Notes: generated by a model from the sequence alone, not told the origin. A stretch of DNA of 64,000 bases from an uncultured Clostridia bacterium (GCA_934149305.1 CAKPEF010000008.1:1885-65884), one strand, 5' to 3'. Positions 3,958 through 59,942 are shown, counted from the first letter of the stretch. Made by a program: numbers and translations.

Positions 3958-4047
3958 GATTGTATTCACTAATTTTATGAAACACCTCTAAGCTTAAACT
4001 ACGTTTTTGCAACATATTTTATTTTTTCATAAATTAGTTTACACTAC
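3958..4047 (+). repeat. GTAG-hairpin intergenic repeat, degenerate copy
   Basis: TTGTATTCACTAATTTTATGAAACACCTCTAAGCTTAAACTACGTTTTTGCAACATATTTTATTTTTTCATAAATTAGTTTACACTAC. It ends 7 nt before the stop of the 4054 gene. Confidence 0.8.
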
Positions 4048-4053
4048 TTTGTA

Positions 4054-4914
4054 CTATATCTCTATTAGTTCATATTCTATGCTACCTACTCCTAATTTTT
4101 CTGCCGCCTCTATTATATGTGCACCATTTCTTGATTCGATTCTTTCTATTAAATGGTCTCTTCCTGGATCTTTTGAAGCATACACTAAATCAAGGCAAGC
4201 TTTATCAAGTGCAACTGGATCTAACGATGCTAAAACACCTATATCTTTCATACATGGATCTTCTGCAACTGCGCAACAGTCACAGTCAACAGACATGTTT
4301 GCCATTACATTTATAAAAGCTATATTTTCCTTAAAGTAATCCATTATAGATTTATCTGCATCTGCCATTGCTTCTTTAAATGCATTGCCATCAGCTGTCC
4401 ATAATTTTTCAACATCTCCAGCGCCATGGATATATGCTTTTCCATGACTCGAAGCTATTCCGATTGAAATATTCTTCAAAGCTCCACCGAATCCGCCCAT
4501 TGGATGTCCTTTAAAATGTGATAATACTAACATCGAATCATATTTTTCTATATTCTTTCCAACATAATTTACTTTTATTTGTGCACCATTTGGTATTGGA
4601 AGCTCTATTTCTCCATCTGCATCCATTATATCTACCTTAAAGTTTTCTGTCCAACCATGTTCTTTCATTGTTTGCCAATGCTCTTCAGTTGTATTTCTCT
4701 TGCCTGCATAAGCTGTGTTGCATTCAACTACTGTACCATTTACTTTATTGATTACTTCCTTGTACAAATCTGGTCCTAAAAAGTTTTGGTTACCTGCCTC
4801 TCCTGAATGTACCTTTACAGCTACATTGCCTGGCAAAGTCATTCCCAATTTTTCATACATTTTTACAATTTCGTCTGCAGTTATGTTTTTGCTAAAATAC
4901 ACTTTTGATTTCAT
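4054..4914 (-). CDS. DUF362 domain-containing protein
   Basis: 286-aa ORF: VKVHSGEAGNQNF ... ECNTAY ... CDCCAV cysteine cluster, as in the DUF362 family (recognised from memory). Confidence 0.75.
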   Translation of the reverse strand: MKSKVYFSKNITADEIVKMYEKLGMTLPGNVAVKVHSGEAGNQNFLGPDLYKEVINKVNGTVVECNTAYAGKRNTTEEHWQTMKEHGWTENFKVDIMDADGEIELPIPNGAQIKVNYVGKNIEKYDSMLVLSHFKGHPMGGFGGALKNISIGIASSHGKAYIHGAGDVEKLWTADGNAFKEAMADADKSIMDYFKENIAFINVMANMSVDCDCCAVAEDPCMKDIGVLASLDPVALDKACLDLVYASKDPGRDHLIERIESRNGAHIIEAAEKLGVGSIEYELIEI

Positions 4915-4938
4915 TTTAATTCCTCCAATTCATTTATG

Positions 4939-5030
4939 GTTGTGTTCATTAATTTTTATGGAGCACAATCAAGTTTAAGCCACATTTTTTGCAGCAGCTT
5001 TATATTTTTTCATAAATTAGTTTGCACTGC
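4939..5030 (+). repeat. GTAG-hairpin intergenic repeat
   Basis: GTTGTGTTCATTAATTTTTATGGAGCACAATCAAGTTTAAGCCACATTTTTT...CATAAATTAGTTTGCACTGC. Confidence 0.85.
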
Positions 5031-5052
5031 ACCATTTATTATTATCTTTTTA

Positions 5053-5103
5053 TTGAGAACGCCTAAGCTTAAGCCACTTTATTTTTCATAAATTAATTTA
5101 AAC
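5053..5103 (+). repeat. GTAG-hairpin intergenic repeat, partial copy overlapping the murF stop codon
   Basis: TTGAGAACGCCTAAGCTTAAGCCACTTTATTTTTCATAAATTAATTTAAAC. The murF stop (5098..5100) lies inside the tail module. Confidence 0.75.
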
Positions 5104-58031: not shown

Positions 58032-58193
58032 TTCCACCCCTTTTCCAAACAATATTCTATTTATTGTTTTTCATTAAAATTTCATATATAATACATATTA
58101 GTCACACATAATAATACTATTATTAAATCAAAGTATATAGCATATATAAAAAATATTCAATAACTACAAACAAATTTAGAAAGGATGATTTAT

Positions 58194-59423
58194 ATGTCGT
58201 TTATGAATAAGTACGATAGAGATTCAATTTATGAAGAAATGGAGGGAAAAAGTTTTTCTAATTCATTTGGCAGTGTTGCCTCAAAGTTAACAGCATCTGT
58301 TTTGCTTTTATCACTTGGATTTGCTAGCGGTAGCATTTATTCTGCTTTTAATCAAAATCATGTAAATGCAAACACACCAAATACAATCTCAGAAAATTCT
58401 AGCAATTCAATATTAACTACTTCTTCAAGTGGAACTACCACAGCTATTACTACAGATTCTGTAACTCCTCATTCTATAAAAGGAATTGTAAAATCTTGTG
58501 CAGACTCTGTGGTTGAAATCACTATTGAAACTACACAAAGTATATATTCTTATAAGTATACCGCAGAAGGAAATGGTAGTGGTGTTATAATTTCTGAAAA
58601 CGGTTATATACTTACTAACAACCATGTTATAGATGGAGCAAATAAAATTTTAGTTAGATTAAAAGATGGAACTGAATACGAGGCTAAGTTAATAGGAAAA
58701 GATTCAAAAACAGATACAGCAGTTATAAAGATTGAAGCAACTGGCCTTAAATATGCTGTTTTAGGTGATAGTTCAAAACTTGAAGTTGGTGATTTAGCGG
58801 TTGTTATCGGTAATCCTCTTGGAGAACTTGGCGGAACTGTTACAAGTGGTATAATAAGTGCACTTGAAAGAGAAATAAATATAAGTGGTAAAAAAATGAA
58901 CCTAATTCAAACAGATGCTGGCGTAAACCCTGGTAATTCAGGTGGTGGATTATTTAATGCTAACGGAGAATTAGTAGGAATTGTTACTGCAAAATCGTCT
59001 GGTATAGATGTTGAAAATTTAGGATTCGCGATCCCAATAAATGATATAAAATCAGTAGTAAATGATTTAGTAGAACATGGATATGCAACTAATAGAGCTT
59101 TTCTTGGTGTTATGATGAAAGATACAGCTTATTCAACAAATTCACCATATGGTGGCTATGGAAGCTTGTTTAATATGTTTTATTCACAAATGCAATACGG
59201 TGCATATGTTGAATCTGTAGTTGAAGACTCACCTGCAGAAAAAGGCGGAATCAAATCAGGAGACATCATAGTTTCTGTAAATGGTAACGTTGTATCAACT
59301 GCAGCTGAGGTAACAGCAGAAGTAACAAATTGCAATGTGGGTGACGAAATCGAAATAGGAATAATTAGAGATAACAAGACCAAAACCGTAAAAGTAAAAC
59401 TTACAGAGTACAAAGGTGAATAG
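58194..59423 (+). CDS. htrA: HtrA/DegP-family serine protease with a PDZ domain
   Basis: TNNHVI, DTAVIKI, GNSGGGLF catalytic motifs. N-terminal anchor and C-terminal PDZ. Confidence 0.92.
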   Translation: MSFMNKYDRDSIYEEMEGKSFSNSFGSVASKLTASVLLLSLGFASGSIYSAFNQNHVNANTPNTISENSSNSILTTSSSGTTTAITTDSVTPHSIKGIVKSCADSVVEITIETTQSIYSYKYTAEGNGSGVIISENGYILTNNHVIDGANKILVRLKDGTEYEAKLIGKDSKTDTAVIKIEATGLKYAVLGDSSKLEVGDLAVVIGNPLGELGGTVTSGIISALEREINISGKKMNLIQTDAGVNPGNSGGGLFNANGELVGIVTAKSSGIDVENLGFAIPINDIKSVVNDLVEHGYATNRAFLGVMMKDTAYSTNSPYGGYGSLFNMFYSQMQYGAYVESVVEDSPAEKGGIKSGDIIVSVNGNVVSTAAEVTAEVTNCNVGDEIEIGIIRDNKTKTVKVKLTEYKGE

Positions 59424-59434
59424 CCACAAGTCAA

Positions 59435-59477
59435 ATAGCTTCTATTGTTAGTAAACCTAACGGTAGAAGCTATTTTC
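59435..59477 (+). terminator. intrinsic terminator after htrA
   Basis: ATAGCTTCTA - 19 nt - TAGAAGCTAT followed by TTTT. Confidence 0.75.
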
Positions 59478-59576
59478 TATAAAAGCTAATATTTATATAC
59501 ACAAGCACCTATTGATTTTTATGTAAATCTATGGTATTATTCACGTATGCGAAATTTTATTGAAAGGGGAACTCTT

Positions 59577-59792
59577 ATGAAAACACTTTTGATAAAACTA
59601 ATAAAGTTGTATCAAAAAATTCCCGGTCCCTGGCACAGTGCCTGTAGGTTTCATCCCACTTGTTCAAATTATGCTATAGAAGCACTTGAAACACATGGTT
59701 TTTTTAAAGGCTCTGCATTAACATTGTGGCGAATACTTCGTTGCAATCCATTTTCAAAAGGAGGATACGACCCCGTTCCACCTAAAAAATAA
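59577..59792 (+). CDS. yidD: membrane protein insertion efficiency factor YidD
   Basis: [19 protein letters not shown] ... RILRCNP. ATG behind GAAAGGGGA. Confidence 0.9.
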
Positions 59793-59942
59793 ATATTGCT
59801 ATTCAGCGCTTGTTTGGTTCAAGGTTGAACAGCAATATTTATTATAAAGCATGCTCCGCTACATTTTATAGAAATGTAGCGGAGCACAGTGTGCTCCATA
59901 AAAATACTACTGTTTGGCATTTGTCACAGATTAAGGCTGAAT
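59793..59942 (-). repeat. GTAG-hairpin intergenic repeat, the only inverted copy (behind the only + strand gene that has one), with an extra head-to-head fragment
   Basis: GCTCCGCTACATTT (59853..59866) pairs with AAATGTAGCGGAGC (59872..59885). GGAGCACAGTGTGCTCC lies at 59881..59897. The head module TGACAAATGCCAAACAGTAGTA is present in reverse complement. Confidence 0.9.

What the first reader, a model, noticed from the sequence alone, without database searches (positions are those of the whole stretch)
3958..59942. A dense family of modular GTAG-plus-hairpin (REP-like) intergenic repeats
About 15 copies occur in 64 kb: 3958..4047, 4939..5030, 5053..5103, 13691..13792, 13821..13918, 15362..15455, 22748..22882, 25696..25788, 39469..39590, 39597..39655, 47892..47990, 47995..48009, 53125..53246, 57101..57230 and 59793..59942.
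The core on the + strand is TTTTATGGAGCACACTGTGCTCCGCTACATTTTT. Read in the sense of the flanking genes it becomes GTAG-C-GGAGCACAGTGTGCTCC-AT. That is a GTAG tetranucleotide followed by a hairpin, the architecture described for proteobacterial REP elements recognised by RAYT (IS200/IS605-like) transposases.
There are two core variants: GGAGCACACTGTGCTCC, and GGAGCACGCCTAAGCTTAAGCTAC with an AGCTTAAGCT palindrome. Hybrids at 53125.. and 57101.. still keep GGAGC...GCTCC pairing. Head modules are interchangeable (TTGTGTTCACTAAGTATA.. or ..TGACAAATGCCAAA..). So are tail modules (CATAAATTAGTTTACACTAC, TAATATTTATTTGGTGCTGA, TTGAAGACTTAAGAGTAACA).
Orientation follows the upstream gene. The only inverted copy sits behind the only + strand gene that has one (yidD). 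In gene sense the hairpin is followed by A-rich sequence, not U-rich, so these are not canonical terminators. I do not know of such an element family in low-GC Firmicutes.
Basis: partly seen in the sequence, partly recalled or inferred. Interest (0 to 1): 0.7.

Follow-up and report, generated by a model that had tools for sequence, protein, structure and literature searches.

The report
REP repeats with a RAYT partner
The repeats are real: they are a previously undescribed family of REP elements (a GTAG tag plus a short GC-rich hairpin) in an uncultured low-GC gut Clostridia lineage, and in related genomes the same sequence brackets a RAYT transposase gene, so this is a new member of a known kind of selfish intergenic DNA rather than a new kind of system.

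Summary
The window carries 14 cores plus one fragment, all intergenic, and the core motif occurs far more often than chance allows. Only 4 cores are the intact 24-nt REP, GTAGC-GGAGCAC-AGT-GTGCTCC-AT. Three are hybrids with 5-bp stems. About 7 do not fold better than shuffled sequence.

The same 24-mer occurs in about 16 GTDB species MAGs, mostly gut Clostridia with 23-32% GC. In six related loci it flanks both sides of a small HUH/Y1 transposase gene in inverted orientation, GTAG outward. That gene is the RAYT family (only PDB hit: E. coli TnpA-REP; HUH, Tyr and Asn conserved). The stem shows compensatory changes.

Two MAGs at 92-97% identity lack whole elements that the window has, such as 22748-22887, so the elements turn over.

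A second shell is a 133-bp MITE with terminal inverted repeats and 8-bp target duplications.

Perfect or near-consensus sigma-70-type promoter sequences and intrinsic-terminator-like hairpins sit beside the elements, so the elements are neither.

No RAYT gene lies in the window, and none could be shown in the closest relatives. Verdict: new member of a known kind, of moderate interest.

The parts
22748..22887 (-). A-type long composite. Left arm GTAGTGTAAACTAAT.., intact REP at 22814-22837, right arm ..ATTAGTGAACACAAC, which is the inverted copy of the left arm.
   Evidence: Exact REP. Hairpin -11.6 kcal/mol. The whole 140 nt is missing from L148 and L149 (92-97% identical relatives) and from five more distant syntenic loci, so it is a recent insertion. 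It replaced the last codons of the MMPL gene and supplies its stop codon.
13679..13792 (-). A-type tail plus intact REP (13727-13750), followed by the right arm of a B-type shell.
   Evidence: Compared with L149, this roughly 100-nt unit lies directly 3' of the ..CTCCAT of the older core at about 13.83 kb, and itself ends in ..CTCCAT.
13821..13918 (-). B-type left arm (GTTACTCTTAAGTCTTCAAAG..) plus a degenerate 'variant 2' core, GTAGCTTAAGCGTAGATGTACTCCAT.
   Evidence: No significant hairpin. An orthologous copy is present in L149, and L148 has an internally deleted version.
39469..39590 (-). Intact REP (39535-39558) with an A-type right arm that ends 12 nt before the ribosome-binding site of the methyltransferase gene.
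39597..39655 (-). Head-to-tail neighbour, 68 nt upstream of the previous core, carrying the variant-2 core GTAGCTTAAGCTTAGGCGTGCTCCAT.
   Evidence: Fold z-score +0.58.
59793..59947 (+). The only + strand copy. It holds a remnant pair of B-type terminal repeats, an inverted partial REP (..GCTCCGCTAC), the intact REP at 59876-59899 and a B-type right arm.
   Evidence: The partial inverted pair makes a 17-bp hairpin at 59850-59888. It lies between yidD and a MAG0110-family gene.
57101..57230 (-). A-type long composite with the hybrid core GGAGCTTAAGTGTGCTCC (5-bp stem). The GTAG tag is lost (ATAAA).
53120..53246 (-). B-type composite, 3'-truncated, with the hybrid core GTCGA-GGAGCTTAGGTGTGCTCC.
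   Evidence: 86.6% identical to the 133-bp B element of L004.
47883..47990 (-). Variant-2 core plus a B-type right arm. A perfect TTGACA-17-TATAAT promoter lies downstream at 47867-47839.
47995..48009 (-). 15-nt core fragment (GCTCCATAAACAAAT) that provides the stop codon of gene 48001..51189.
15325..15455 (-). A-type long composite with the core GTAGCTTAAGCACATTGTGCTCC (5-bp stem).
   Evidence: The orthologous copies in L148 and L149 differ by a cluster of changes in the 5' arm and its upstream flank. The upstream stretch of about 275 nt (15451-15726), which overlaps the 5' tip of this composite and holds a degenerate B-type shell, is absent from L149.
25696..25788 (-). Degenerate A-type short composite between the adk terminator and the tetR promoter.
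   Evidence: The stretch 25675-25842 is absent from L149, and L148 has a longer version at the same site.
4939..5103 (-). Two degenerate A-type units in tandem between murF and a DUF362 gene.
3958..4047 (-). Degenerate A-type short composite with the core GTAGTTTAAGCTTAGAGGTGTTTCAT.

Best explanation
**What it is.** The repeats are a REP family. The unit is 24 nt: GTAGC, a 7-bp GC-rich stem, a 3-nt loop and AT. Its cognate enzyme is a RAYT, a domesticated single-copy HUH/Y1 nuclease of the IS200/IS605 superfamily.

**How the RAYT route works.** On single-stranded DNA the RAYT binds the hairpin foot and the 5' GTAG, then cuts and rejoins next to it. This spreads the REP and keeps its sequence uniform.

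**A second route.** In this lineage the REP mostly sits in the middle of two kinds of 75-135-nt shells bounded by terminal inverted repeats. Whole shells insert and are lost as units. One shell type behaves like an ordinary MITE, with an 8-bp target duplication, so a second transposase probably contributes to the spread.

**What survives.** Copies persist only where they do no harm: between a stop codon and the next ribosome-binding site, or between a terminator and the next promoter. They almost always lie in the sense of transcription. Many then decay or are patched by exchange with other copies, which gives the hybrid and hairpin-less cores.

**Shown versus inferred.**
- Shown: the repeats; the hairpin and its covariation; the RAYT-REP bracket in relatives; the conserved catalytic residues; presence/absence between relatives; the inverted repeats and the target duplications.
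- Inferred: that a RAYT acts on the copies in this genome; that the copies are transcribed; any effect on mRNA.
For: **The motif is real and shared.**
- The motif is far above chance.
- The same 24-mer is found in 50 loci from about 16 species-level MAGs.

**The RAYT link.**
- The RAYT-like gene is bracketed by that REP, inverted and with GTAG outward, in L038/L052, L136/L137/L145, L146/L157, L155 and L156. L050 holds a 5'-truncated copy that keeps only the downstream inverted REP.
- NCBIfam REP_Tyr_transpos matches at E = 1e-16.
- The only PDB hit is 4ER8, TnpA-REP. HUH (H59/H61), Y115 and N119 align.
- The gene sits at one fixed chromosomal site in at least 10 samples.
- More distant Clostridia RAYTs are flanked by their own GTAG hairpins.

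**The stem is under constraint.**
- 4 of 7 stem pairs have changes on both sides. The covariation score is 0.157 against 0.064 in shuffles, reached by 0 of 500 shuffles.
- Among GTAG-anchored windows there are 27 distinct perfect 7-bp hairpins, with at least 9 different stems.
- The core is 100% conserved while the surrounding shells are only about 78-80% alike.

**Turnover and shells.**
- Elements differ in presence between 92-97% identical relatives.
- 8-bp target duplications flank the B-type element in L004 and L148.

**Not promoters, terminators or phage/plasmid DNA.**
- Perfect or near-consensus sigma-70-type promoter sequences and intrinsic-terminator-like hairpins lie next to the elements.
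- No match in Rfam, phage, plasmid or viral collections.
Against: - No RAYT gene lies in the 64-kb window.
- None was found with intact REP brackets in the two closest MAGs, CAKPEV and DHKI01/UBA4698.
- The RAYT loci come from relatives whose shared genes are only about 70-77% identical in DNA.
- The RAYT scores below NCBIfam's equivalog cut-off (61 against 80 bits) and just under Pfam's Y1_Tnp cut-off (22.7 against 23).
- Only 4 of 14 window cores are intact substrates.
- The one clean recent insertion, 22748-22887, is a whole composite with inverted repeats, not a bare REP, and it has no interpretable junction signature.
- The B-type shell has target duplications, which Y1 transposition does not make.
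- Window copies are single or head-to-tail, not the inverted doublets typical of REPINs.
Confidence: 0.78

Rival explanations
1. The repeats are ordinary MITEs: internally deleted derivatives of DDE-transposase insertion sequences. They are moved through their terminal inverted repeats. The GTAG hairpin is only an internal passenger, and its link to RAYT genes is incidental.
For: - Both shell types have terminal inverted repeats. A: GTAGTGTAAACTAAT / GTTGTGTTCACTAAT. B: GTTACTnTTCAGnCTT.
- Two of the three complete B copies have clean 8-bp target duplications.
- The recent insertion at 22748 is a whole composite.
- Two inverted B copies bracket a ToxN cassette in L017, like a composite transposon.
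Against: - In most other MAGs the 24-mer occurs without these shells, with diverse flanks.
- It is the 24-mer, not the shell, that brackets RAYT genes.
- The core is 100% conserved while the shells have drifted to about 78% identity.
- The stem covaries.
- No partner insertion sequence with these ends was found in 0.9 Mb of related DNA.
- The A-type insertion shows no target duplication.
Confidence: 0.12
2. The hairpin is a host cis-acting RNA element that is kept by selection, for example an mRNA stabiliser or processing site between cistrons. Its spread is secondary.
For: - Strong sense-strand bias: all 14 window copies, and 32 same/same against 6 opposite/opposite among exact copies elsewhere.
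- G-T wobbles keep pairing only on the GTAG strand.
- Exact conservation across species.
- Many copies sit 10-20 nt upstream of a ribosome-binding site.
Against: - Presence or absence at housekeeping operons differs between 92-97% identical relatives.
- Half of the copies have lost the hairpin.
- There is no fixed position relative to promoters or terminators.
- The position next to ribosome-binding sites follows from very short intergenic gaps: the empty site at 22748 has only about 20 nt between the two genes.
- The sense bias is confounded with replication direction, because 71 of 82 ORFs lie on one strand.
Confidence: 0.07
3. They are transcription signals, either unusual terminators or promoters.
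For: - On the antisense strand, one hybrid (57164-57181) and the inverted pair (59850-59888) meet a loose terminator pattern.
- The elements fill operon boundaries.
Against: - In gene sense the hairpin is flanked by A-runs. On the opposite strand the T-run starts 6-7 nt after the stem.
- Terminator-like hairpins followed by T-runs (15.7, 25.85 and 53.1 kb; only the last is confirmed by the scan) and perfect or near-consensus TTGACA-17/18-TATAAT promoters (25.6, 47.85 and 60.0 kb; the last two confirmed) lie beside the elements in the same gaps.
- No good -35/-10 pair lies within the conserved part.
Confidence: 0.03

Closest known systems
E. coli REP/BIME elements with TnpA-REP (RayT), the 'REPtron' (Nunvar 2010 PMC2817692; Messing 2012 PMC3479197; Di Nocera 2013 PMC3733652)
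   Same: - A 5' GTAG tag directly before a short GC-rich hairpin.
- Strictly extragenic location.
- A single-copy HUH/Y1 gene bracketed by inverted REPs.
- Conserved HUH, Tyr115 and Asn119 equivalents.
- Mosaic clusters with other motifs.
   Different: - The stem is perfect, 7 bp with a 3-nt loop, with no bulge. The E. coli bulge is needed for binding.
- The setting is AT-rich, at 31% GC.
- Window copies are single or head-to-tail, not alternating inverted pairs.
- Protein similarity to E. coli RayT is weak (E = 3e-6).
- No biochemistry has been done.
REPIN/RAYT systems of Pseudomonas (Bertels and Rainey; PMC5581495, PMC8049555)
   Same: - A vertically inherited RAYT at a fixed locus.
- A REP population with a conserved master sequence plus decayed copies.
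- Presence/absence variation between relatives.
   Different: - The replicating unit in Pseudomonas is an inverted REP doublet. Here it is a single REP inside a shell of inverted repeats. Doublets were seen only in the 41% GC MAG CAMVPR.
- Which RAYT group of Bertels et al. this protein belongs to was not tested. Their Group 1 is the one reported in Clostridia.
GTAG REPs embedded in longer palindromic shells (Anabaena GTAG-15, Halothiobacillus CGTC-1; Di Nocera 2013)
   Same: The REP sits in the centre of a longer inverted-repeat sequence that is not found without it.
   Different: - Here there are two or more different shells for one REP.
- One shell has 8-bp target duplications.
- The host phylum is different.
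IS200/IS605 insertion sequences
   Same: - The same enzyme superfamily.
- Subterminal hairpins with a 5' guide-like tetranucleotide.
- No target duplication at the A-type insertion.
   Different: - The gene is single-copy at a fixed locus.
- There is no tnpB.
- The hairpins are dispersed on their own in many copies.
Modular intergenic repeats of low-GC Firmicutes (BOX, RUP and SPRITE of Streptococcus pneumoniae; from my own knowledge)
   Same: - Modular.
- Intergenic.
- Often co-transcribed.
- MITE-like, in an AT-rich Gram-positive genome.
   Different: - No sequence similarity.
- Those families have no GTAG hairpin and no RAYT partner.

Membership tests
REP (GTAG-tagged repetitive extragenic palindrome) | Short (20-40 nt) palindrome able to form a stem-loop | tested here: met
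   - 4 copies have a 7-bp stem at -11.6 kcal/mol (the two folded gave z = -3.7 and -4.8).
- 3 hybrids have a 5-bp stem.
- About 7 degenerate copies do not fold.
REP (GTAG-tagged repetitive extragenic palindrome) | Conserved GTAG tetranucleotide 5' of the stem | tested here: met
   GTAG is present in all 4 intact copies and most variants, and in 36 of 42 distinct variants across loci.
REP (GTAG-tagged repetitive extragenic palindrome) | Strictly extragenic location | tested here: met
   All 10 cores with up to 1 mismatch are intergenic. One fragment supplies a stop codon.
REP (GTAG-tagged repetitive extragenic palindrome) | High copy number per genome (tens to hundreds) | not testable with these tools
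   Only 64 kb of this genome is held, with 14 cores. Relatives show at least 10 exact copies per incomplete MAG, and the scan listed exactly 50 loci, so these may be lower bounds.
REP (GTAG-tagged repetitive extragenic palindrome) | Compensatory variation that keeps the stem | tested here: met
   4 of 7 pairs have changes on both sides, and 0 of 500 shuffles reach the observed score. Alternative stems seen: GGCGAAC/GTTCGCC, GGAACAC/GTGTTCC, GGCGCAC/GTGCGCC.
REP-RAYT system (REPtron) | RAYT gene flanked by the same REP in inverted orientation | tested here: met
   - Met in relatives L038, L136, L146/L157, L155 and L156. L050, a 5'-truncated copy, keeps only the downstream inverted REP.
- Not shown for the window's own genome or for its closest MAGs.
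REP-RAYT system (REPtron) | HUH motif and catalytic tyrosine of the Y1 nuclease | tested here: met
   PNHIHMI aligns with PEHMHCI, and KYIDEN aligns with DYIYIN (Y115, N119) of 4ER8.
REP-RAYT system (REPtron) | Scores as RAYT in curated family models | tested here: inconclusive
   - NCBIfam NF047646 is the best and only hit, at 61 bits and E = 1e-16, below the equivalog cut-off of 80.
- Pfam Y1_Tnp gives 22.7 against a cut-off of 23.
REP-RAYT system (REPtron) | Single copy at a fixed locus, inherited vertically | tested here: met
   P0046 lies between the same hydrolase and ydjC genes in at least 10 samples. Copy number per genome was not measured.
REP-RAYT system (REPtron) | A RAYT gene in the same genome as the REPs | not testable with these tools
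   There is none in the window.
REPIN | Two REPs in inverted orientation forming one long hairpin as the replicating unit | tested here: not met
   Window copies are single or head-to-tail. The only inverted pair is the partial one at 59850-59899. True doublets occur in MAG CAMVPR.
MITE | Terminal inverted repeats, small size, no coding capacity | tested here: met
   A shells are 74-135 nt and the B shell is 133 nt.
MITE | Target-site duplication | tested here: inconclusive
   - B type: 8 bp in 2 of 3 complete copies (AGAATATG in L004, TCTCAAAC in L148).
- A type: none at the 22748 insertion.
MITE | An autonomous insertion sequence with the same ends | tested here: not met
   None in 0.9 Mb of held loci. 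The only long pair of B ends brackets a ToxN cassette.
Intrinsic terminator | GC-rich hairpin directly followed by a U-run | tested here: not met
   The sequence is A-rich on both sides in gene sense. The cores in the 44-62 kb stretch that was scanned, which holds one of the four intact REPs (59876-59899), are not called in gene sense.

The most novel reading that the evidence does not exclude
One REP core is served by two transposition systems. A RAYT keeps the 24-nt core uniform: the core is 100% identical while the shells have drifted to about 78%. Most new copies, however, arise when the core rides inside MITE shells with terminal inverted repeats and target duplications. In addition, the hairpin-less 'variant 2' and the 5-bp hybrids may not be decay products. 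They could be steps in the birth of a hairpin, in the order GTAGCTTAAGCTTAGGCGTGCTCC, then GGAGCTTAGGTGTGCTCC, then GGAGCACAGTGTGCTCC, produced by template switching or by exchange between copies. That would show REP formation in progress.
Probability: 0.15. Interest if true: 0.6.

Novelty: new member of a known kind. Interest (0 to 1): 0.4.

Why it matters
REP/RAYT systems have been characterised almost entirely in Proteobacteria. The GTAG-repeat survey of Di Nocera et al. 2013 does not mention Firmicutes at all. Clostridia appear in the RAYT literature only as hosts of 'Group 1' RAYT genes with few associated repeats.

This finding gives a concrete REP-RAYT pair in small, AT-rich, uncultured gut Clostridia.
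- It has a defined 24-nt substrate.
- It is dense, at about one element per 4-5 kb in this window.
- It shows clear insertion and loss between close relatives.

There is also a practical side. These repeats break short-read assemblies exactly at the hairpin, and they alter gene ends.

The result extends known biology. It does not overturn it.

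Tried and rejected
**Functional readings tested and rejected**
- Portable promoter, or hairpin at the 5' end of the transcript. I looked for -35/-10 pairs in the conserved parts and found none. Perfect promoters lie outside the elements.
- Small ORF starting at the ATG of ATGGAGCAC on the + strand. There is no ribosome-binding site, and the ORF overlaps a real gene on the other strand.
- CRISPR-like array, considered for L018, L024 and L042. These are head-to-tail duplications with identical 'spacers'.

**Database searches that found nothing relevant**
- Rfam: only the S10 leader matched.
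- tRNA or tmRNA: none.
- Phage, plasmid and IMG/VR collections: no match to the composites or to the 24-mer.
- Literature search for the sequence itself: only chance hits.

**Searches for a RAYT in or near this genome**
- phmmer with E. coli RayT against the window: no hit.
- A gapped pattern for REP-bracketed RAYT genes found CAKPAA, CAKOVW and CAMOWC, but not the closest MAGs.
- The RAYT contig from the same study (L146/L157) turned out to belong to a different species. Its DUF362 gene is only 70% identical, and it carries no A shell, B shell or variant-2 markers.

**Other attempts**
- Search for the autonomous partner of the shells: none found.
- Separating the gene-direction bias from the replication-direction bias. 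This is not possible with 8-kb loci, because local GC skew follows gene strand.
- Junction analysis of the 22748 insertion: no clean duplication or target motif.

Full report
**1. The observation**

The window has 31% GC, a strong negative GC skew, and 71 of 82 ORFs on the - strand. It carries a ribosomal-protein cluster with the S10-Clostridia leader, and spo0A, so the host is a spore-forming Clostridia lineage.

The core counts are far above chance.
- GGAGCACACTGTGCTCC occurs at 4 sites against 0.01 expected.
- The second variant occurs 3 times against 0 expected.
- Using the 3' arm plus flank as a probe gives 10 good cores and 4 degenerate ones, all intergenic. 11 of the 38 intergenic gaps of at least 60 nt hold at least one family element.

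Read in gene sense, the intact unit is GTAGC-GGAGCAC-AGT-GTGCTCC-AT, with A-runs on both sides.

Only four copies are intact: 13727-13750, 22814-22837, 39535-39558 and 59876-59899. Their hairpin is strong, at -11.6 kcal/mol. Three hybrids keep 5 base pairs. The 'variant 2' cores fold no better than shuffled sequence.

**2. Not promoters or terminators**

I wrote out every element-bearing gap from stop codon to start codon. The elements sit next to separate transcription signals in the same gaps.
- Hairpin-plus-T-run terminator-like sequences lie at 15.7, 25.85 and 53.1 kb; the scan covered and confirmed only the last.
- TTGACA-17/18-TATAAT promoters lie at 47.85 and 60.0 kb (both 12 of 12), and a near-consensus TTGACT-17-TATAAT lies at 25.6 kb.

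Where an element abuts a ribosome-binding site, the gap is simply an intercistronic one. The consensus scan covered 44-62 kb, which holds one of the four intact REPs (59876-59899), and called none of the cores there as a terminator in gene sense.

**3. The same sequence elsewhere**

The exact 24-mer occurs in 50 loci from about 16 GTDB species-level MAGs. Fourteen of these have 23-32% GC and come from gut samples (Hadza people, roe deer and others). Two have 41-43% GC.

The flanks are diverse.
- In the 41% GC MAG the REP pairs with a second, inverted hairpin (GGCGAAC..GTTCGCC-GCTAC), forming a classic doublet.
- Some loci have head-to-tail arrays.
- Many low-GC loci have a single copy just upstream of a ribosome-binding site.

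The 24-mer is absent from IMG/VR viral contigs. The composites have no match in the phage or plasmid collections or in Rfam.

**4. The RAYT link**

I searched all ORFs of the fetched loci with E. coli RayT. This found a 150-aa protein in L038 and a truncated copy in L050.

The REP brackets this gene.
- In L038 the gene is preceded by GTAGCGGAGCACAGTGTGCTCCAT and followed, right after the stop codon, by ATGGAGCACAATGTGCTCCGCTAC. That is the same REP inverted, with GTAG pointing outward.
- The same bracket surrounds homologues in L136/L137/L145, L146/L157, L155 and L156; the 5'-truncated L050 copy keeps only the downstream inverted REP.

The protein belongs to the RAYT family.
- Its best and only NCBIfam hit is 'REP-associated tyrosine transposase' (E = 1e-16, below the equivalog cut-off).
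- It sits just under the Pfam Y1_Tnp cut-off.
- Its only hit in the PDB is 4ER8, E. coli TnpA-REP bound to a REP.
- HUH, Tyr115 and Asn119 align. Residue roles are taken from PMC3479197.

One homologue lies at the same chromosomal site in at least 10 samples, as expected for a domesticated single-copy gene.

The wider family is large in Clostridia: 469 or more loci in GTDB species and 5880 proteins at E <= 1e-20. More distant members are flanked by their own GTAG hairpins, such as GTAGGGGCGG..CCGCCC.

**5. The stem matters**

- Among all GTAG-anchored 17-mers in 0.9 Mb, perfect 7-bp hairpins are strongly over-represented. There are 27 distinct ones, where about 1 is expected by my own estimate, assuming random pairing. 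They use at least nine different stems.
- I also took 42 variants chosen by similarity to the consensus, not by pairing. In these, 4 of 7 pairs show changes on both sides, and no shuffle reaches the observed covariation score.
- The variants are related sequences, so the shuffle count is not a probability. The slid controls also fall well below the true register.
- G-T wobbles keep pairing only on the GTAG strand.

**6. Mobility**

The window is ENA ERZ28614027 scaffold_757. Two GTDB MAGs, CAKPEV (L148) and UBA4698 (L149), are syntenic with it at 92-97% DNA identity.

Differences between them and the window:
- 22748-22887 is missing from both, and from five more distant syntenic loci where the two genes nearly touch. 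It is therefore a recent insertion. It replaced the last codons of the upstream gene and supplies its stop codon.
- 25675-25842 and 15451-15726 are missing from L149.
- L148 has a further nested element.
- At 13.7 kb the window has an extra roughly 100-nt unit, placed directly after the ..CTCCAT of an older core.
- L148 has an internal deletion at that site.

Short-read contigs from other samples end exactly at the hairpin foot.

**7. What the modules are**

An A-type element is therefore a REP inside a shell of inverted repeats.
- A second shell, type B, has ends GTTACTnTTCAGnCTT and a full length of 133 bp. In two of the three complete copies it has clean 8-bp target duplications. That is MITE behaviour, which Y1 enzymes do not produce.
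- No partner insertion sequence was found.
- The core is 100% identical between copies whose shells are only about 78-80% alike. This points to constraint or homogenisation acting on the core.
- Orthologous copies differ by clusters of changes in the 5' arm and its flank. I read this as exchange between copies, which is an inference.
- REPs embedded in longer palindromic shells are on record in other phyla.

**8. Orientation**

All window copies are in gene sense. Among exact copies elsewhere the counts are 32 same/same against 6 opposite/opposite.

Gene strand, local skew and replication direction are confounded here. The bias may therefore reflect insertion into the lagging-strand template, as for IS200/IS605. 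It may instead reflect selection on transcripts. The yidD copy follows the gene rather than the regional skew, but it is a single case.

**9. Verdict**

- This is a REP family with a cognate RAYT, in a host group where such pairs have not been described. The sequence itself gave only chance literature hits. The GTAG-repeat survey does not mention Firmicutes. RAYT genes in Clostridia are mentioned only in passing.
- It is a new member of a known kind.
- The main open points are whether this genome still has its RAYT, and how much of the spread is due to the MITE-like shells.

Noticed in passing
L017 3756-4861 (MAG CAKPEV, closest relative of the window): A type III toxin-antitoxin cassette is bracketed by two inverted B-type 133-bp elements, like a small composite transposon. 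It consists of a ToxN gene at 3924-4427 on the - strand (Pfam E = 5e-48) and 3.2 copies of a 36-nt tandem repeat at 4494-4608.
   Followed up: partly
window 13919-15297: trkH is split by a frameshift into two ORFs, 14992..15297 (N-terminal part) and 13919..14698 (C-terminal part). It is either a pseudogene or an assembly error.
   Followed up: partly
window 20661-25605: A TetR regulator, an MMPL transporter and a 686-aa coiled-coil protein are inserted between adk and map, inside the otherwise conserved secY-adk-map end of the ribosomal-protein cluster. In more distant relatives the cassette is not next to adk.
   Followed up: partly
window 46586-47273: In-frame tandem repeats with periods of 24 and 30 nt (9 and 7 copies) lie inside gene 46417..47829, a TolA/PspA-like repetitive protein.
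   Followed up: no
window 61368-62231: An 832-nt gap without an ORF lies next to spo0A (62200..63024). A 38-nt repeat occurs at 61510 and again at 62194, at 97% identity, where it overlaps the spo0A 3' end. No second spo0A fragment was found by tblastn.
   Followed up: partly
L133 and L134 (Logan contigs), ends at window 22815: [quoted passage not shown] The repeat fragments assemblies of this lineage.
   Followed up: no
L157 2596, 3871, 12185, 14323; also L020, L150, L006, L046: A different intergenic repeat family of about 165 nt is shared by several related MAGs. It is unrelated to the REP core.
   Followed up: no
L024 about 4100-4370 (roe deer MAG JAFUGH): Six head-to-tail REP copies with a 38-nt period lie just upstream of a gene start.
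   Followed up: no
L048 (contig binned as Treponema sp. UBA6988) and L014 (Clostridia MAG): The two contigs share the same REP and near-identical flanks next to a tRNA 3' end, although they are assigned to different phyla. This points to mis-binning or horizontal transfer.
   Followed up: no
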